Shown here one piece after another: positions 25,900 to 30,205 of a DNA stretch of 39,013 nt; positions within the stretch are counted from its first letter, which is position 1, and the number at the start of each line of letters is the position of its first letter. The DNA is from Candidatus Micrarchaeota archaeon UBA95 (lineage in GTDB: Archaea; Micrarchaeota; Micrarchaeia; Norongarragalinales; Norongarragalinaceae): positions 1 to 39,013 of the forward strand of contig DALH01000018.1 of the NCBI GenBank assembly GCA_002499405.1. Reading direction: 5' to 3'. The notes under the pieces are model-generated. The model saw only the letters and a list, made by a program, of their open reading frames with translations. It was not told the DNA's origin and made no database searches. The translations under genes and the position numbers were made by a program.

Positions 25900-26160
25900 T
25901 CATTTTTGGTCGCGGAAAACGATTGCGTGTTGCGGCGGTCGAAGTTGATGGATTCGTTGGCGAGCGTGCAACTTAGGCCTGGGGGAGAGGCGGGGGGTTG
26001 AGTTGTTGAGGTGCATGAGCTGGTTGAAAGCAGGAGCTGGCTGTACCTCGCGGCGGGCCTCGCGCGCCCGCGTTTGAAGTCGCTGCGTTTTCAGGTGATA
26101 GAGTTCAGCGCCGCGGTGGGAAGTTGCAGCGCGGTGAGGGGAAATACCCATCTTCTTCAA
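25900..26160 (-). CDS. Hypothetical small basic protein, last ORF of the Ub-E2 transcription unit (weak)
   Basis: 86-aa ORF, Arg/His/Gln-rich, on the same strand and 20 nt downstream of the 33-aa ORF. The composition could also be non-coding GC-rich DNA. Confidence 0.3.
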   Translation of the reverse strand: MKKMGISPHRAATSHRGAELYHLKTQRLQTRAREARREVQPAPAFNQLMHLNNSTPRLSPRPKLHARQRIHQLRPPQHAIVFRDQK

Positions 26161-26179
26161 GATGCGCAGAGGTCTGCGG

Positions 26180-26281
26180 CTAGCATTCGTGTTTTTCCAC
26201 GAACTCGAATTCCTTTTCAGAGGGAGGTGTGCGCTCTTCTTTCACGGGTTCTTTTATGCTGACGATTCGCGGGCGCTTCAT
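26180..26281 (-). CDS. Small ORF (33 aa) translationally coupled to the E2 gene (weak)
   Basis: MKRPRIVSIKEPVKEERTPPSEKEFEFVEKHEC. Its ATG overlaps the E2 stop as ATGA (GGGTTATGAAG). Confidence 0.3.
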   Translation of the reverse strand: MKRPRIVSIKEPVKEERTPPSEKEFEFVEKHEC

Positions 26282-26736
26282 AACCCACTCACGATGCGCG
26301 GCTTTCCGGGTTCGGGTTTGTTGCCTTGGTTTTCGTAGTATGCGGCGGCCTCCTTGTTCAACGGGTCCGAGGGGTTCGGGTTTTTTAGCAGGTATTGCAG
26401 GGCGTTGACGACGTTGGTTATTGTTTGGTTTTCCGCCCAGTCGTTCACGAGTTGGATGCATACCTTGCCGTCTTCTTCGCGTATGTTGGGGTGGAATATC
26501 GGGGTGAGCCACGTGATTTCAACGCCGCCGGGGTAGGGATAGTTGCGGTTCAACTCTATTTTGACGGCGTGCTTGTTTTTTTCGAGTACGTGGTCGCCTT
26601 CGCGGTAGAGGCCCGGGCCGTTCAAGCTCAGCACGTATTCCGTGTAATCCGAGTTTACCTCGAATTTGGTTCCAGAGTTCCGCATTTGCTGGTATTCGTT
26701 TTCGAGGCGGCGCTTCCAGATCTGCGGGGGGAGCAT
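26278..26736 (-). CDS. Ubiquitin-conjugating enzyme E2 (UBC fold)
   Basis: 152 aa. YPYPGGVEITWLTPIFHPNIREEDGKVCIQLVNDW: HPN motif followed by the catalytic Cys and conserved Trp, then the PNPSDPLN loop. The ATG directly abuts the stop of the Ub-like gene. Confidence 0.9.
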   Translation of the reverse strand: MLPPQIWKRRLENEYQQMRNSGTKFEVNSDYTEYVLSLNGPGLYREGDHVLEKNKHAVKIELNRNYPYPGGVEITWLTPIFHPNIREEDGKVCIQLVNDWAENQTITNVVNALQYLLKNPNPSDPLNKEAAAYYENQGNKPEPGKPRIVSGL

Positions 26737-26979
26737 TCAGCCACCCGTAGGGTCGGGAATCAACAACAGTTCTTGGTTCTCCTTGATTTCGGCTTCTTCC
26801 AGAGTCATGTCGGGGTTTAGTATTTTGTTTTCCTTGGTTGCCAGAACGAAGCGGTCCTTCAAGTGAAGGTTTTCGGCGAGTACTTCCAGCACCGAGGAAA
26901 CCGAGTAGTCCCCTTCAACCGCCAGTATGATTTCCTTTCCAGACGTGGTTTGGGTTACCTTGATGTTGAATTCGCTCAT
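26737..26979 (-). CDS. Ubiquitin-like beta-grasp protein ending in Gly-Gly
   Basis: 80 aa. MSEFNIKVTQTTSGKEIILAVEG...ELLLIPDPTGG then stop. Size, alternating beta-strand pattern and the C-terminal GG are typical of Ub/Ubl modifiers. Confidence 0.85.
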   Translation of the reverse strand: MSEFNIKVTQTTSGKEIILAVEGDYSVSSVLEVLAENLHLKDRFVLATKENKILNPDMTLEEAEIKENQELLLIPDPTGG

Positions 26980-27015
26980 ACGTTTTTTAAGGTCAAGAGA
27001 TTAATATTCCTTGTT
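26980..27015. promoter_or_regulatory. 36-nt divergent promoter region of the Ub-E2 and JAMM-RING units
   Basis: TTTTTTAA (26983..26990) is 26-33 nt upstream of ATG 27016. AATATTAAT (27008..27000, minus strand) is 21-29 nt upstream of ATG 26979. These are crossed leaderless-type TATA boxes. Confidence 0.4.
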
Positions 27016-27702
27016 ATGGCCGACGACGAAATGCAGGAAATTCGGGGCAAGAAAGAGCCGCGGCCGCCGGTCGGAACCAACGTTGAAGAAGACGGGGAAA
27101 GGGTTTCACAGGAGGAGTCGGTCGAGGAAATGAAACCAGTTCAGGCGCCAGTACAGGAATTCCCGCCCAAAAAAAGTCGGGAAGCGCGGTCGGAGCAGGA
27201 GTTGGAGGCAAGCGACTTCTCGGATTTGCCGGGCAAAGACGTTTCAGGCGCAAAGCCGACCCGGGACGAACAGTTGCCTTCGCCGCCCAAGCCGCCGGCG
27301 CAGGAAGCGCTGCAGGAAAAATCATCCGAAGAAAAAATCGCGGAAATTGAGGAATCGCCCGCCGAGGAAACCGGAGAACCCTCCGAGGAAGATGAGTCCC
27401 TGCAGGAAGTGAAGCCGCCGGATGAATTAAAGGAGTTGCGGGAATCCGAACAGGAAGCGCAGGAGTTGTTGGAGGATGACTCCAAGCCGCGTTATATGCG
27501 GTTTCACGAGCGGGCGCGGCAAAGCACTTTTCCGGGGAGCGCCGAGCAGGCGAAAAAAGACATCACGCCGGTTTCAAGCGAGCCGCAAATAACCACGGAA
27601 CAACGCGTTAACCAGGCAATAGAGTTGCACAAGGCGCAACAAAAGGAAGGATTATTCTCCAAGTTGTTGAGTCCCATAAAACGCAAGCTCGGGTTCACGT
27701 GA
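27016..27702 (+). CDS. Acidic Glu/Pro/Ser/Lys-rich, probably intrinsically disordered protein (hypothetical)
   Basis: First ATG after the divergent promoter, within ORF 26863..27702; 228 aa. Low-complexity acidic sequence (EESVEEMKP..., EEKIAEIEESPAEETGEPSEEDESLQE) with a short basic amphipathic C-terminus (LFSKLLSPIKRKLGFT). The stop overlaps the JAMM start (TGATG). Confidence 0.7.
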   Translation: MADDEMQEIRGKKEPRPPVGTNVEEDGERVSQEESVEEMKPVQAPVQEFPPKKSREARSEQELEASDFSDLPGKDVSGAKPTRDEQLPSPPKPPAQEALQEKSSEEKIAEIEESPAEETGEPSEEDESLQEVKPPDELKELRESEQEAQELLEDDSKPRYMRFHERARQSTFPGSAEQAKKDITPVSSEPQITTEQRVNQAIELHKAQQKEGLFSKLLSPIKRKLGFT

Positions 27703-28139
27703 TGTACTCCGCCTACTTTTTTCAAGCCGCCTTGGAGGAGGCGCGCAGGCATTTCCTTGCAGCCGCCGAAAAAGGCGTGGAAGCAATCGGGTTGTTTGCG
27801 GGCCGGGTTTATAGTTTTCAAGGCAGGGATTACCTGGTTGCCGAGGAGTACGTGACCGAGGAAAATGATTCCTCGGCTTTGCACACGCGTTTCGCGCGCG
27901 AAGCGTTCAAGGGGCTGGCCAAGAAGTATTCGGGAAAACCGTTCGTTGTATGGGCGCACTCGCACCCGAATTACGGGTGCTTCATGTCTTCGCAGGACTT
28001 GGCGGCGCACAACTCGTTCTTCAACGAGCCGTACCACCTCGCGCTGGTGGTGGACCCGGTGCGCGGAGAGGAAAAACTGTTTAAGGTTGAAGGAGAAGAA
28101 TTTTATCCGGTGCCGTACGCGGTGGTGAAAAAGAAGTGA
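27702..28139 (+). CDS. JAB1/MPN/JAMM metalloprotease (Rpn11-like deubiquitinase candidate)
   Basis: 145 aa (ATG 27702; a GTG at 27699 is also possible). Upstream Glu (VAEEYV) and an exact JAMM motif HSHPNYGCFMSSQD (HxHx7Sx2D). Confidence 0.88.
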   Translation: MYSAYFFQAALEEARRHFLAAAEKGVEAIGLFAGRVYSFQGRDYLVAEEYVTEENDSSALHTRFAREAFKGLAKKYSGKPFVVWAHSHPNYGCFMSSQDLAAHNSFFNEPYHLALVVDPVRGEEKLFKVEGEEFYPVPYAVVKKK

Positions 28140-28825
28140 GTGCCGGGAAGCGTTTTACTTTGACGAAGTTCGACAAGGATTTGCTGGGTTACCTGTCGGA
28201 CGGTCCATCGTCGCGCCGCGAGTTGTTGGCGAAGACGCGAGTCGCTGAATCCGAGTTCGACAAGCGCATCAAGAAGTTGAAAGCGAAGAAGTACGTCGTC
28301 CTGGACGGAGATGGGATTGCCTTGGGCGTTGGGGGCTACAACAAGTCGAGGCAACTGGACGCGGCGGCCAGGCGCAAGGAGACCAAAAAAGAACGGGTAA
28401 TGGTTTCCTTGCCGGAAGCAAAACCCGCGCCAAAACAGGAGCCGAAAACAGAGCCGGTTAAACCCGAACGCGTCGAGGCGCCGGCGAACGCAATCGACTT
28501 GGCGGAAATCCTGAAGCAGGCAAGCGAACGCATGCGCGAACAAAAAGGCGTTCAACAAAAATCAATTGAAAAGGAGCCATGGCCGCCGAAGCGCGTGCAA
28601 CCAAAGGAGTCGTGCGAGTTGTGCAAAGGCGAATTCTTCTTGTCCGTTAAGGGGGGTCACCCGAAGTACGGGCACTGTTTTTGCGGGGCTGCTTACCACA
28701 AGGACTGTTACGAGGCCGTGATGGGGGGCGACAAGCACTGCGTGAGGTGCGGCAGGAAACTGGAACTCTACCTTGACAAGGAGAGCGAGGAAGCCGTGCA
28801 TTCTATTCGGGACGTCTTCGACTGA
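28136..28825 (+). CDS. Winged-helix plus C-terminal C4HC3 RING-type zinc-finger protein (E3 candidate)
   Basis: 229 aa; the GTG start overlaps the JAMM stop (GTGA). N-terminal wHTH-like DLLGYLSDGPSSRRELLAKTRVAESEFDKRIKKLKAKKYVVL, a Lys/Pro/Glu-rich linker, and a C-terminal C-x2-C-x17-C-x-C-x4-H-x2-C-x10-C-x2-C pattern. Confidence 0.8.
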   Translation: MSAGKRFTLTKFDKDLLGYLSDGPSSRRELLAKTRVAESEFDKRIKKLKAKKYVVLDGDGIALGVGGYNKSRQLDAAARRKETKKERVMVSLPEAKPAPKQEPKTEPVKPERVEAPANAIDLAEILKQASERMREQKGVQQKSIEKEPWPPKRVQPKESCELCKGEFFLSVKGGHPKYGHCFCGAAYHKDCYEAVMGGDKHCVRCGRKLELYLDKESEEAVHSIRDVFD

Positions 28826-29441
28826 AAGTCATTTCCTCGATTCGCTTAAATCGTTTTTCATTGGTTTTCTTGCTTTTTGCCAGCCATTCGATTAGCTGAA
28901 TCGCTTTTTTCTTGTGTGCGTCCGCTCCTACCTGGTTTACCCGCCCCCAACTCGTTTCCGTTACGCTGGTCACTCCCTTTCTTATTTTTCCCCTATACCT
29001 ACTGCTGCCAATAAGTGGTTTTAGTTTTCTGTTTAGCTCTGTTCCGGTTGGTTTAAGTTGGTCTATGACGCCGCTTACGCCCAAGTTTGTAGCGGTTGCT
29101 ACTGAGATTCCCGCGGGGACGCTCCAAAAACCGAGTTTTCGCCATAGCGTTGCCGCGATTGCTCCGCTTCCGCCAATCAGCGCCCCACCCTCGATTTTTG
29201 CCCTGCGGCTCGTATGACCCCGTTTTGCAACTTCAATTGAATCGTTGATTTCTTTGATTAGCTCCCCGATTTCGTAGTGTTGGGCCGGAGTGCGGTTGGC
29301 GGGATGCGTTTGCAGGGCGATTTCGTGTTTTTTTAATGTCTCCAATATGTCTTTTTCCGCGTTCAGGATTTTTTGCGTGTGTTCAAACGCGTATCGGTTT
29401 GCGGTTATTCTTCTTTTTTTGTTTCCCTCTCCAATCGGCAT
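28803..29441 (-). CDS. Hypothetical glycine-zipper membrane-associated protein co-transcribed with E1
   Basis: 212 aa. Helical N-terminus, central GGALIGGSGAIAATLW...GISVATATNLGVSGVI hydrophobic Gly-rich hairpin, basic C-terminus. AGGGG SD-like sequence 8 nt upstream and 11 nt after the E1 stop. Visibly AT-richer than the flanks. Confidence 0.65.
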   Translation of the reverse strand: MPIGEGNKKRRITANRYAFEHTQKILNAEKDILETLKKHEIALQTHPANRTPAQHYEIGELIKEINDSIEVAKRGHTSRRAKIEGGALIGGSGAIAATLWRKLGFWSVPAGISVATATNLGVSGVIDQLKPTGTELNRKLKPLIGSSRYRGKIRKGVTSVTETSWGRVNQVGADAHKKKAIQLIEWLAKSKKTNEKRFKRIEEMTFSRRRPE

Positions 29442-29452
29442 TTATTTTCCCC

Positions 29453-30199
29453 TTAATGCACGGGGCAGTTCGCCCTTTTTGGAACGTCGTAAACGATTGT
29501 TTCCTGTTTCAAGCCGTCAAAGAAAACGTATTTTCCTTCAAGGCAGTCGCGGCCGTGAACCATTTTCACGAACTCGTTGGCCTGCATCGCGGCAATGATT
29601 GACGTCGTGGTGGCGAGCGCCGGCATCTTTGGGTCCAAGAAGTCAAGGACTTCGCCCACGCACGAATATTTTTTCCACATCTTCTTGTAATCCGCCTTGC
29701 TCATGGTGCATTCCAGGCACGAGGAAGGCGAGCGCACGACCTGCACCTTGCCGTGGAAGCCCGTAGTCCCTCCGTCAATGAGCGGAACGCGGCCGTAGCA
29801 GTAAGCGTTCAAGTGGAGGCGCGCGGCCTGGTTATCCAAGCCCGAGAAAGCGTAATCAAACCGGTCGTAAAACCAGTCGTCAAGGAATTCCAGGCGCTTG
29901 ACCACGGCCTTGATGCGTGCGTTCTCGTCCATGACGCGCGCTTTTTCCGCGAGCACTTCCGCCTTGAGTTTTCCAACGTCCGAGGAGTTGAAGAACACGC
30001 AGCGGTTGAGGTTCGCCTCGATTATGGAATCGTAGTCCACGAGCGTCAAGTCGCGAACCCCTTTTTGGACGAGCAACTTGATTAATTCGTTTCCGAGCGC
30101 GCCCGCTCCAACCACGAGACACCGCGCTTTGGATACCGCGTCCTGGTCCCATCCGTTGATGCGTTTCTGCCTGTCGAAGCGGTCGTCGTCCGCGCGCAT
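29453..30199 (-). CDS. Ubiquitin-activating E1-like enzyme (minimal ThiF/MoeB-type adenylation domain)
   Basis: 248 aa from ATG 30199 (the track's TTG at 30205 is less likely). RFDRQKRINGW...CLVVGAGALGNE (GxGxxG), VDYDSIIEANLNRCVFF, GLDNQAARLHLN, PLIDGGTTGFHGKVQVV, CLEC motif. Confidence 0.88.
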   Translation of the reverse strand: MRADDDRFDRQKRINGWDQDAVSKARCLVVGAGALGNELIKLLVQKGVRDLTLVDYDSIIEANLNRCVFFNSSDVGKLKAEVLAEKARVMDENARIKAVVKRLEFLDDWFYDRFDYAFSGLDNQAARLHLNAYCYGRVPLIDGGTTGFHGKVQVVRSPSSCLECTMSKADYKKMWKKYSCVGEVLDFLDPKMPALATTTSIIAAMQANEFVKMVHGRDCLEGKYVFFDGLKQETIVYDVPKRANCPVH

Positions 30200-30205
30200 A
30201 ATCAA

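What the first reader, a model, noticed from the sequence alone, without database searches (positions are those of the whole stretch)
26734..26979. Ubiquitin-like ORF terminates exactly at Gly-Gly, and its stop codon directly abuts the E2 start codon
The minus strand reads GGT GGC TGA ATG CTC. The modifier is therefore made in mature form with a free C-terminal GG and needs no C-terminal processing. The E2 ATG follows the TGA with zero spacer, which implies translational coupling of modifier and E2. The JAMM protease is then more likely a deconjugating enzyme than a precursor-processing enzyme in this system.
Basis: seen in the sequence. Interest (0 to 1): 0.6.

Follow-up and report, generated by a model that had tools for sequence, protein, structure and literature searches.

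The report
Ready-made ubiquitin-like gene abutting its E2
A tiny groundwater archaeon (Micrarchaeota) encodes a ubiquitin-like tag that is made ready to use, ending in Gly-Gly, with its stop codon directly against the start of its E2 enzyme gene.

Summary
On the minus strand an 80-aa beta-grasp ORF (26979..26737) ends ...PDPTGG-TGA, and the ATG of a 152-aa UBC-type E2 follows with no spacer. Nine other assemblies and contigs from four further sequencing runs show the same junction, so it is not a sequencing error.

PDPTGG is present in all 120 homologue clusters. 93 of these end exactly at GG, and 27 carry unconserved tails of 1-27 residues. The modifier was found in 47 of 48 sampled genomes of the window's own order (named Norongarragalinales in the record titles of related contigs) and in 0 of 353 genomes from other orders of the phylum.

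The zero spacer is not conserved. It occurs in this genus and once more independently; other relatives have 15-88 nt spacers, often with Shine-Dalgarno motifs. It is also the fourth commonest junction type in this genome.

An intact JAMM is kept beside tail-less modifiers in 22 distinct loci, which supports a deconjugating role here. However, tailed orthologues and two natural Ubl::E2 fusion proteins in homologous JAB-E1 operons suggest the protease family also cuts after GG.

Translational coupling is plausible but untested. The Thr-Gly-Gly codons form an SD-like GGGUGG.

The scan had already noted this cassette, on this window and on another Micrarchaeota genome. Verdict: new member of a known kind, moderate interest.

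The parts
26737..26979 (-). Ubiquitin-like modifier gene, 80 aa, ending ...LLLIPDPTGG followed by TGA (26739-26737). It is encoded in mature form.
   Evidence: ORF; weak Pfam ubiquitin-family hits. AF2 pLDDT 84 with beta-beta-alpha-beta-beta order. Foldseek top hits are ubiquitin, SUMO and NEDD8 at TM 0.80-0.86, and CsUb 6fj7 at TM 0.83; the family profile aligns residues 9-74 to ubiquitin 5-70, so GG79-80 corresponds to ubiquitin GG75-76.
26740..26745 (-). Gly-Gly codons GGT GGC, the C-terminal di-glycine that E1 would adenylate.
   Evidence: The motif is invariant in 120/120 homologue clusters and in all loci examined.
26734..26739 (-). Junction TGA|ATG: the Ubl stop is directly followed by the E2 start. 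There is no spacer, so both genes are in the same frame.
   Evidence: The junction is identical in 9 other assemblies and in contigs of 4 further runs. It is also present in the sister species (L001/L019) and, independently, in L040.
26741..26748 (-). SD-like ACGGGUGG made by the Thr-Gly-Gly codons. It lies 4 nt upstream of the E2 AUG and is a possible ribosome-binding site for E2.
   Evidence: the genome's 16S rRNA ends ...GAUCACCUCCA; the predicted duplex is -7.3 kcal/mol, and GGTG motifs peak at -12..-9 upstream of long ORFs in this genome. This is an inference and has not been tested.
26278..26736 (-). UBC-type E2 gene, 152 aa, with HPN...C active-site signature (FHPNIREEDGKVCIQL).
   Evidence: UQ_con 73.9 bits; best solved relatives are eukaryotic E2s (UBE2H, 2e-14). 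N-termini of orthologues agree with this ATG.
26980..27015 (.). 36-nt AT-rich divergent intergenic region between the Ubl gene (-) and the acidic-protein/JAMM/RING unit (+). It has TATA-like tracts about 21-33 nt upstream of each ATG and no SD for Ubl, so both transcripts are probably leaderless.
   Evidence: sequence; the Ubl upstream duplex with the anti-SD is only -0.7 kcal/mol. The promoter assignment is an inference.
27016..27702 (+). 228-aa acidic, low-complexity protein, first gene of the divergent unit. Its stop overlaps the JAMM ATG by 1 nt.
   Evidence: gene calls; no Pfam family.
27702..28139 (+). JAMM/MPN+ metalloprotease, 145 aa, with motif HSHPNYGCFMSSQD (HxHx7Sx2D).
   Evidence: Prok-JAB 9.5e-5 and JAB 1.3e-4, both just under the Pfam cut-offs; best solved relatives are CSN5 and Rpn11 (about 1e-5) and CsRpn11 (2.7e-3); present in 58/61 genomes of the order; motif intact in 31/31 fetched loci.
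28136..28825 (+). 229-aa protein with an N-terminal winged-helix-like region and a C-terminal Cys/His RING-like finger. It is the candidate E3. Its start overlaps the JAMM stop by 4 nt.
   Evidence: sequence CELCKG...HCFCGAAYHKDC...HCVRCGRK; only a weak MarR_2 hit. The E3 role is an inference.
28803..29441 (-). 212-aa protein of unknown family, 11 nt downstream of E1 on the same strand.
29453..30205 (-). Minimal E1-like adenylating enzyme (ThiF fold). It is 250 aa from the TTG, or 248 aa from the ATG at 30199 as called in other assemblies.
   Evidence: ThiF 2.8e-46; best solved relatives are the active adenylation domain of eukaryotic Uba1 (1.7e-26), ahead of MoeB/ThiF (1e-15); it is the only ThiF-family hit over the cut-off in the genome.

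Best explanation
The flagged stretch is the Ubl-E2 gene pair of a eukaryote-type ubiquitylation cassette. The cassette holds Ubl, a minimal E1, a UBC E2, a RING-like protein and a JAMM protease. The host is a DPANN archaeon (Micrarchaeota; record titles of related contigs name the order Norongarragalinales).

The 80-aa beta-grasp modifier is translated directly in its active form, ending in Gly-Gly. It can therefore be adenylated by the E1 and passed to the E2 cysteine without any proteolytic maturation. The fold and the terminus are shown here; the chemistry is inferred from the families.

Ubl and E2 share one transcript, probably leaderless for Ubl. E2 is translated either by ribosomes that terminate at UGA and restart at the adjacent AUG, or by fresh initiation. 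Either route would be helped by an SD-like GGGUGG that the Thr-Gly-Gly codons themselves provide. This step is inferred.

The zero spacer is a recent compaction in this genus of an ancestral 30-50 nt spacer that carried an SD.

Because this organism has no precursor to trim, its conserved, active-site-intact JAMM must work mainly on conjugates, that is, as a deconjugase. Tailed orthologues and Ubl::E2 fusions in homologous operons suggest the enzyme family can also cut peptide bonds after GG, so the JAMM is best seen as a bifunctional enzyme used here in one mode.
For: Junction and stop:
- Sequence.
- The same junction in 9 assemblies and in 4 independent runs.

Modifier identity:
- AF2 beta-grasp model, pLDDT 84.
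- Foldseek top hits are ubiquitin, SUMO, NEDD8 and CsUb at TM 0.80-0.86.
- The family profile aligns to ubiquitin so that the two GG termini coincide.

GG conservation:
- PDPTGG in 120/120 clusters, of which 93 end at GG.
- 26 of 29 species loci end at GG.
- Found in 47/48 genomes of the order and 0/353 genomes outside it.

Enzymes:
- UQ_con 1.3e-20 and ThiF 2.8e-46; JAMM motif HxHx7Sx2D.
- Solved relatives are eukaryotic E1, E2, CSN5 and Rpn11.

JAMM retained without a precursor:
- 58/61 genomes of the order, and 22/22 high-quality ones.
- Motif intact in 31/31 fetched loci (27 distinct), 22 of the distinct loci with a tail-less Ubl.

Processing capacity in the family:
- Tails of 1-27 aa in 27/120 clusters.
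- At least 20 changes of tail state on a quick tree.
- Ubl::E2 fusions P0142 and P0146 sit in JAB-E1-fusion operons. Their E1 is 43% identical to the window's E1, their E2 part 40% and their Ubl part 33%.

Precedents:
- CsRpn11 both matures pro-CsUb and cleaves conjugates (PMC5654768, PMC6043591).
- BilC does the same (PMC10557695).
- The BubCD JAB domain cuts the BubAB Ubl-E2 fusion (PMC11601596).

Coupling:
- The 16S 3' end is GAUCACCUCCA.
- The duplex with the E2 upstream region is -7.3 kcal/mol.
- Relatives' spacers often carry GGAGG or GAGGT.
- All four same-strand junctions of the cassette are tight: -4, -1, 0 and +11 nt.
Against: - There are no RNA or protein data for this organism, so co-transcription, coupling, conjugation and JAMM activity are all inferred.
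- The zero spacer is not conserved (2 lineages), and the census suggests it is common in this genome (29 cases). Any coupling is therefore not a required feature of the system.
- SD use in this genome is modest: 37% of long-ORF starts reach -6 kcal/mol or better, against 21% of random sites. The GGGUGG may simply be a by-product of the Gly codons.
- The JAMM scores just under both Pfam cut-offs.
- The E1 is a minimal 250-aa ThiF-fold protein without a recognisable catalytic-cysteine domain or UFD. E1-to-E2 transfer may therefore differ from the eukaryotic scheme.
- In Type I Bub the JAB domain seems to act mainly in processing, not deconjugation (PMC11601596), so JAB retention does not by itself prove deconjugase activity.
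Confidence: 0.72

Rival explanations
1. The small protein is a sulfur carrier of the MoaD/ThiS/SAMP/Urm1 type. Its GG terminus would be thiocarboxylated by the ThiF-like enzyme, and it would not be a protein modifier.
For: The E1 is a minimal single-domain ThiF-fold enzyme of MoeB/ThiF size (MoeB and ThiF are matched at 1e-15). Sulfur carriers are also typically encoded with a free GG end. That last point is established knowledge, not tested here.
Against: - A canonical UBC E2 with HPN...C is the next gene.
- A RING-like protein and a JAMM lie in the same cassette.
- The E1 matches the eukaryotic Uba1 adenylation domain better than MoeB/ThiF (1.7e-26 against 1e-15).
- No ThiS/MoaD-family hit was found in the genome, which is 86% complete.
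- The fold and the profile are closest to ubiquitin, SUMO and NEDD8.
Confidence: 0.05
2. The abutting stop and start is incidental genome compaction with no regulatory meaning. E2 would be translated independently, through its own internal initiation or even its own transcript, and the Ubl:E2 ratio would not be set by coupling.
For: - Zero-spacer junctions are the fourth commonest class in this genome (29).
- Relatives work with 15-88 nt spacers or with an intervening gene.
- Some relatives' spacers are AT-rich and lack an SD (L003, L005), which is compatible with a separate promoter for E2.
- The genome is small and streamlined (764 kb in the assembly).
Against: - With no spacer, any E2 promoter would have to lie inside the Ubl ORF, and none is evident (though that scan covers bacterial-type sites only).
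- Both independent zero-spacer lineages use GGT as the first Gly codon, which gives GGUGG. 15 of the other 19 listed loci use GGC. This is a weak hint of selection for an SD.
Confidence: 0.2
3. The JAMM is kept as a processing enzyme only, as proposed for the JAB domain of Type I Bub. In tail-less species it would be needed for some other linear substrate, and conjugate removal would be done by something else or not at all.
For: - In Type I Bub the JAB domain cuts the Ubl-E2 pre-protein and does not obviously reverse conjugation (PMC11601596).
- Tails and fusions exist in this protein family.
Against: - No linear substrate exists in this genome. There is one Ubl gene, it is tail-less, and no fused form was found.
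- Even so, the active site is intact in 22 distinct tail-less loci.
- The nearest characterised archaeal enzyme, CsRpn11, cleaves conjugates (PMC6043591).
Confidence: 0.1
4. The stop codon is a sequencing or assembly error, and the true gene is a Ubl-E2 fusion or a tailed precursor.
For: Natural Ubl::E2 fusions exist in homologous operons and are collinear with this junction.
Against: - The TGA|ATG junction is identical in 9 other assemblies from three archives.
- It is identical in contigs of 4 further runs from different studies, with no differences.
- The sister species has the same junction at 81% E2 identity.
Confidence: 0.01

Closest known systems
Caldiarchaeum subterraneum ubiquitin operon (CsUb, E1-like, E2-like, small RING finger protein, CsRpn11; PMC5654768, PMC6043591)
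   Same: It is an archaeal cassette with a ubiquitin-fold modifier carrying a GG motif, a UBC E2, a ThiF-type E1, a RING-type protein and a JAMM encoded beside it on the opposite strand. The modelled fold matches CsUb at TM 0.83-0.85.
   Different: - CsUb is made as an 87-aa precursor with a 9-residue tail (CGEPIRRAA) that CsRpn11 must remove. Here the gene stops right after GG.
- Sequence identity to CsUb is only about 22%.
- The E1 here is a minimal 250-aa protein. [quoted passage not shown]
- The candidate E3 here has a winged-helix N-terminus.
- The host is a DPANN archaeon, not Aigarchaeota or Asgard.
Haloferax volcanii SAMP1-3 / UbaA / HvJAMM1 sampylation (PMC4443979; that SAMP genes end at GG is from my own knowledge)
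   Same: The modifiers are encoded with a free C-terminal GG and need no maturation, and a stand-alone JAMM acts as the deconjugase. This is the closest functional analogy for a 'mature modifier plus JAMM used as deconjugase' system.
   Different: Sampylation has no E2 and no RING protein, and SAMPs also serve as sulfur carriers. Here a canonical UBC E2 is the next gene, and no ThiS/MoaD-family protein was detected.
Bacterial Type II BilABCD (PMC10557695)
   Same: Ubl, E2, JAB and E1 lie in one operon. The Ubl has a universally conserved Gly followed by 0-9 unconserved residues, and the JAB both pre-processes and deconjugates. The same pattern of variable tails is seen across this archaeal family.
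   Different: It is a bacterial anti-phage system, and its E1 has inactive and active adenylation domains plus a CYS domain. Here the system is found in 47 of 48 sampled genomes of the order, which looks like vertical inheritance rather than a sporadic defence island.
Bacterial Type I Bub: BubAB Ubl-E2 fusion cut by the JAB domain of BubCD (PMC11601596)
   Same: Ubl and E2 are collinear in the same order, and the JAB cuts right after the conserved Gly. The relatives P0142 and P0146 found here have this fused architecture, and the window's junction sits exactly at the equivalent point.
   Different: The Bub E2 and E1 lack catalytic cysteines (the E2 has a serine) and JAB is fused to E1. Here the E2 has the canonical HPN...C, the proteins are separate, and the window has a stop codon where Bub has a scissile peptide bond.

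Membership tests
Ubiquitin-like protein modifiers (beta-grasp, conjugated through a C-terminal Gly) | Beta-grasp fold (beta-beta-alpha-beta-beta) | tested here: met
   The AF2 model has pLDDT 84, with strands at 3-10, 16-22, 44-48 and 70-75 and a helix at 27-38. Foldseek top hits are ubiquitin, SUMO and NEDD8 at TM 0.80-0.86.
Ubiquitin-like protein modifiers (beta-grasp, conjugated through a C-terminal Gly) | Flexible C-terminal tail ending in conserved Gly-Gly, at or near the end of the translated protein | tested here: met
   The protein ends PDPTGG-stop. The motif is invariant in 120/120 clusters, and 93 of them end exactly there.
Ubiquitin-like protein modifiers (beta-grasp, conjugated through a C-terminal Gly) | Significant sequence match to the Pfam ubiquitin family | tested here: inconclusive
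   The single sequence scores below the Pfam cut-offs (ubiquitin 14.1 bits against 25.4; UBL_UBAC1 20.8 against 27). The family profile hits single ubiquitin at 14-17 bits and is significant only on poly-ubiquitin chains.
Ubiquitin-like protein modifiers (beta-grasp, conjugated through a C-terminal Gly) | Covalent attachment to lysines of target proteins | not testable with these tools
   This needs mass spectrometry or in vitro reconstitution.
UBC-type E2 (Pfam UQ_con) | UBC fold match above the curated cut-off, and an HPN motif followed by the catalytic Cys | tested here: met
   UQ_con scores 73.9 bits against a cut-off of 27. The sequence reads FHPNIREEDGKVC.
E1-like adenylating enzymes (ThiF/MoeB/Uba superfamily) | ThiF-family Rossmann-type adenylation domain | tested here: met
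   ThiF scores 158 bits. The best solved match is the Uba1 active adenylation domain at 1.7e-26.
E1-like adenylating enzymes (ThiF/MoeB/Uba superfamily) | Canonical eukaryotic E1 extras: a catalytic-cysteine domain and a ubiquitin-fold domain for E2 recruitment | tested here: not met
   The protein is only 250 aa and is covered end to end by the ThiF model (residues 19-249). There is no room for CYS or UFD domains. A loop cysteine (KKYSC) exists, but its role is unknown.
JAMM/MPN+ metalloproteases | Zinc-binding motif HxHx7Sx2D | tested here: met
   The window's own motif HSHPNYGCFMSSQD is read from the sequence. The motif is also intact in all 31 fetched related loci.
JAMM/MPN+ metalloproteases | Pfam JAB / Prok-JAB match above the curated cut-off | tested here: inconclusive
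   JAB scores 22.2 against 22.5 bits and Prok-JAB 22.7 against 25, both just under. PDB matches to CSN5 and Rpn11 are about 1e-5.
Archaeal eukaryote-like E1/E2/RING ubiquitylation operon (Caldiarchaeum type) | Clustered Ub-fold modifier, E1-like, UBC E2, RING-type protein and Rpn11-like JAMM | tested here: met
   All five lie within 26278-30205. The RING-like finger was judged from its Cys/His pattern only; no Pfam RING hit was obtained.
Archaeal eukaryote-like E1/E2/RING ubiquitylation operon (Caldiarchaeum type) | Modifier synthesised as a precursor that the JAMM must mature | tested here: not met
   The gene stops directly after GG. This is a property of the characterised C. subterraneum example rather than a strict requirement of the family.

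The most novel reading that the evidence does not exclude
The in-frame GG-UGA-AUG junction may be more than compaction. It may be a functional intermediate between separate genes and the Ubl::E2 fusion proteins seen in homologous operons. Occasional read-through of the UGA would give a Ubl-X-E2 polyprotein that the JAMM cuts after GG. The cell could then make modifier and E2 either separately or in a fixed 1:1 ratio, and the JAMM would keep a processing role even in a 'tail-less' species.
Probability: 0.04. Interest if true: 0.7.

Novelty: new member of a known kind. Interest (0 to 1): 0.4.

Why it matters
In the only biochemically characterised archaeal E1/E2/RING system (Caldiarchaeum), and in the bacterial Bil and Bub systems, the JAMM/JAB protease first has to mature the modifier. 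Its two roles, maturation and deconjugation, are therefore hard to separate.

This Micrarchaeota lineage offers a natural series within one protein family:
- Most species encode a ready-made GG-ended modifier.
- A minority carry short or long unconserved tails.
- Homologous operons elsewhere fuse the modifier to the E2.
- All of them have a JAMM or JAB next door.

That makes the system convenient for asking what the protease does when no precursor exists, and how stop-codon position drifts around a cleavable site. The system is also very small: an 80-aa Ubl, a 152-aa E2, a 250-aa E1 and a 145-aa JAMM.

In itself, a Ubl gene ending at GG next to its E2 is not surprising. SAMPs and Urm1 are also made in mature form, and tight gene junctions are ordinary in this genome.

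Tried and rejected
- RNA evidence: no RNA holder was listed among the public runs, so co-transcription could not be examined.
- Bacterial-type promoter and terminator scan of 26100-27100: counts were at shuffle level, and the scan is not informative for an archaeon.
- Search for fused forms among longer proteins with the word-index tool: only P0121 was found, a 151-aa protein with a 71-aa non-E2 tail on one contig. The Ubl::E2 fusions appeared only in the exhaustive profile search.
- A word-index search with fusion protein P0142 found only itself and P0132, so the size of the fusion family is unknown.
- Six-frame search of the own genome with Pfam JAB found nothing, not even the cassette's own JAMM. 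That search is too insensitive to say whether a second JAMM exists.
- The careful maximum-likelihood tree of the 80-aa modifier did not finish in the time limit. A quick tree was used instead. With 78 columns its branching is weak, so 'at least 20 changes' is a rough figure.
- Sequencing-error explanation: rejected.
- Alternative E2 start: the next in-frame ATG (Met18) would remove the first helix of the UBC fold, since the Pfam match starts at residue 11. Rejected.
- Literature: no paper in the searchable library links Micrarchaeota or Norongarragalinales to a ubiquitin system. The supplement of PMC5654768 does not name Micrarchaeota. The library is incomplete, so this is not proof that the system is undescribed.
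- Complex prediction was not used. The report does not rest on a binding claim that a pass would change.
Full report
**1. The observation**

Read on the minus strand, the window shows ...CCC GAC CCT ACG GGT GGC TGA ATG CTC CCC CCG.... The upstream ORF runs 26979..26737 and encodes 80 residues ending LLLIPDPTGG. Its TGA occupies 26739-26737. The next three bases, 26736-26734, are the ATG of a 152-residue ORF (26736..26278) that matches Pfam UQ_con at 1.3e-20 and carries FHPNIREEDGKVC.

The stop is not an error:
- The same 80-aa protein is on record in 52 blocks of the assembly collection.
- In the nine places fetched, from NCBI, JGI and ENA, the Ubl gene ends one base before the E2 gene.
- Contigs from four sequencing runs that are not marked as possible sources, each from a different study, bridge the junction without a single difference or gap.

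**2. What the two genes are**

The 80-aa protein alone gives only weak Pfam hits to ubiquitin-type families. Three further results identify it:
- An AlphaFold model built from 48 homologues is confident (pLDDT 84). It has the beta-beta-alpha-beta-beta order of a beta-grasp with a free C-terminal tail.
- Its best structural matches are ubiquitin, SUMO, NEDD8 and the Caldiarchaeum ubiquitin, at TM 0.80-0.86.
- A profile of the family aligns residues 9-74 to ubiquitin 5-70, so Gly79-Gly80 falls on ubiquitin Gly75-Gly76.

The surroundings complete a eukaryote-type cassette:
- A 250-aa ThiF-fold E1 (29453-30205, minus strand). Its nearest solved relatives are the active adenylation domains of eukaryotic Uba1 (1.7e-26), ahead of MoeB/ThiF (1e-15).
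- A 145-aa JAMM with HSHPNYGCFMSSQD (27702-28139, plus strand). Its nearest solved relatives are CSN5, Rpn11 and CsRpn11.
- A 229-aa protein with a C-terminal Cys/His RING-like finger (28136-28825, plus strand).
- Two proteins of no known family.

The genome is a 764-kb, 86%-complete assembly. Record titles of the related contigs assign them to Micrarchaeota, several to Candidatus Norongarragalinales. The genome holds only this one E1 over the Pfam cut-off, has no ThiS/MoaD-family hit, and has a 20S proteasome.

**3. Is the GG end conserved, and do orthologues carry extensions?**

The word-index search gave 141 relatives, of which the best 120 were listed. All 120 contain PDPTGG. 93 end exactly at GG, and 27 carry tails of 1 to 27 residues: S, T, N, KR, AK, AR, SA, HL, LF, VSA, ILSR and so on, plus a few long ones.

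The long tails are real. P0036 and P0038 have similar 27-28-residue tails, and the 25-residue tail of P0039 recurs in locus L031.

In one genome per species:
- The modifier was found in 47 of 48 sampled genomes of the window's order, across all ten of its sampled families, and in none of 353 genomes from other orders of the phylum with this query.
- Of 29 species loci, 26 end at GG and 3 have tails: KK, SA and a 26-residue tail.
- On a quick tree of 121 modifier cores, the tailed state changes at least 20 times. The alignment is short, so this figure is rough.

Tails are therefore sporadic, unconserved and short-lived. This is the pattern reported for BilA in bacterial Bil systems, which has a conserved Gly followed by up to nine unconserved residues (PMC10557695).

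**4. The zero spacer**

The E2 gene follows the modifier within 91 nt in 18 of the 29 species loci. In 9 it lies 134-1177 nt away, behind another gene. In 2 it was not in the fetched stretch.

A spacer of zero is found only in the window's genus (the sister species at 81% E2 identity, L001/L019) and, independently, in one genome of another family (L040...GGT GGT TGA ATG CCG...). The other close relatives have 15-88 nt spacers. Many of these contain GGAGG, GAGGT or GGTGA a few bases before the ATG. That fits a shared transcript with SD-led internal initiation as the older state, and loss of the spacer in this genus.

In this genome the junction type is not rare. A crude census counted stops that close a frame of at least 70 codons next to ATGs that open an ORF of at least 70 codons:

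| Junction | Count |
|---|---|
| 4-nt overlap | 117 |
| 1-nt overlap | 46 |
| 1-nt spacer | 39 |
| zero spacer | 29 |
| each other distance (background) | about 4-35, mostly 7-25 |

All four same-strand junctions inside the cassette are tight: -4, -1, 0 and +11 nt.

**5. How E2 is probably translated**

The 16S rRNA of this genome ends ...GAUCACCUCCA. The 22 nt before the E2 AUG can pair with it at -7.3 kcal/mol through GGGUGG, which is formed by the last base of the Thr codon and the two Gly codons, 4 nt before the AUG.

GGTG motifs peak 9-12 nt upstream of long ORFs in this genome. 37% of 425 long-ORF starts reach -6 kcal/mol or better, against 21% of random sites. SD use is therefore real but partial.

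The modifier gene itself has no SD (-0.7 kcal/mol). It sits 36 nt from a divergent gene, with AT-rich TATA-like tracts at the distance expected for leaderless transcripts. It is established knowledge for archaea such as Sulfolobus that first cistrons are often leaderless while internal cistrons use SD motifs.

Both zero-spacer lineages use GGT for the first Gly codon, which gives GGUGG. 15 of the other 19 listed loci use GGC. This is a hint only.

Termination-reinitiation at UGA-AUG and fresh SD-led initiation cannot be told apart from sequence. No RNA run was available.

**6. The JAMM question**

The comparative data support this for the organism:
- The JAMM was found in 58 of 61 sampled genomes of the order, and in all 22 high-quality ones. 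It usually lies within about 1 kb of the modifier on the other strand.
- Its HxHx7Sx2D motif is intact in all 31 fetched loci. These are 27 distinct loci, 22 of which have a tail-less modifier.

An enzyme kept intact where there is nothing to mature must have another substrate, and conjugates are the obvious one.

The same data also suggest that the enzyme family can process:
- Tailed orthologues need trimming.
- The exhaustive profile search found two natural fusion proteins, P0142 (255 aa) and P0146 (260 aa). In each, a homologous modifier ending PDPTGG or PDPIGG runs straight into a UBC E2 with HPN...C.
- They sit in operons JAB - ThiF E1 - Ubl::E2 (L054) and TPR-JAB - ThiF E1 - Ubl::E2 (L052; also seen in a second run, L053).
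- The L052 E1 is 43% identical to the window's E1 over its whole length, the P0142 E2 part is 40% identical and its modifier part 33%.

The fusions are collinear with the window. They have 7 residues between GG and the conserved W(K/Q)(K/R)RL of E2 helix 1. The window has stop-MLPPQI, 6 residues, in the same place.

Cleavage of such a fusion by a JAB has been shown for BubAB in bacterial Type I Bub (PMC11601596). Dual maturation and deconjugation has been shown for CsRpn11 (PMC5654768, PMC6043591) and for BilC (PMC10557695). So 'deconjugase rather than processing enzyme' is right for this genome. The enzyme is best described as bifunctional and used here in one mode.

**7. Comparison with known systems, and novelty**

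- The closest known system is the Caldiarchaeum operon. It has the same parts, but its modifier is a precursor with a nine-residue tail.
- The closest functional analogy for a ready-made GG modifier with a JAMM deconjugase is Haloferax sampylation, which lacks an E2 and an E3.
- The tail pattern matches Bil, and the fused relatives match the Bub Type I architecture.
- None of the papers found on Micrarchaeota or Norongarragalinales genomics mentions ubiquitin. The library is incomplete.
- The scan itself had already noted this cassette, on this window (e1-4449390) and on another Micrarchaeota genome (e1-2780334).

The specific finding is therefore a confirmed, tidy detail of a new member of a known kind. 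The mature terminus is conserved and meaningful. The abutting stop and start is a lineage-specific compaction.

**8. Scores**

- Interest: 0.4.
- The most novel reading not excluded is that occasional UGA read-through yields a JAMM-cleavable Ubl-E2 polyprotein. I put this at about 4%.

Noticed in passing
L052:1742-2509 (also L053:155-922) and L054:2586-3368: These are natural Ubl::E2 fusion proteins: P0142 (255 aa, ...IPDPTGG-TKYPEGSWKRRL...) and P0146 (260 aa, ...APDPIGG-AFYPKAIWQKRL...). Both have a canonical HPN...C E2 part and lie in operons JAB - ThiF E1 - Ubl::E2. They come from metagenome contigs of unknown organisms and are homologous to, and collinear with, the window's Ubl-stop-E2 pair.
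   Followed up: partly
L052:3-893: The JAB protease of the fusion operon carries an N-terminal TPR repeat region (TPR_1 9.4e-23, JAB 3.1e-12). This TPR-JAB architecture is not seen in the window's cassette.
   Followed up: no
protein P0132 (289 aa, ENA contig of 1188 nt): The protein has two tandem Ubl repeats, 72% identical to the Ubl part of P0142. The first ends PDPVGG and the second PDPARG. A hydrophobic, probably membrane-spanning C-terminal segment follows.
   Followed up: no
window 26980-27015: A 36-nt AT-rich divergent intergenic region lies between the Ubl gene and the acidic-protein/JAMM/RING unit. It has TATA-like tracts about 21-33 nt from each ATG and no SD, so both units are probably leaderless transcripts from back-to-back promoters.
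   Followed up: partly
window 27700-27704 and 28136-28139: The other junctions of the cassette are also tight. The acidic-protein stop overlaps the JAMM ATG by 1 nt (TGATG), and the JAMM stop overlaps the GTG start of the RING-like protein by 4 nt (GTGA).
   Followed up: yes
whole genome G000: The cassette's E1 is the only ThiF-family protein over the Pfam cut-off in the 86%-complete genome. No ThiS/MoaD-family protein was detected, and 20S proteasome subunits are present (C8:8942-9478 and C17:10-228).
   Followed up: partly
protein P0121 (151 aa, one NCBI contig of 5041 nt): This is a close Ubl homologue (73% identity) with a 71-residue extension after GG that is not an E2. It could be a fusion to a neighbouring gene or the result of a lost stop codon.
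   Followed up: no
G232:C43:4785-5228: The JAMM orthologue in one genome of the order has an in-frame TGA inside the match. It could be a pseudogene, a sequencing error or a recoding event.
   Followed up: no
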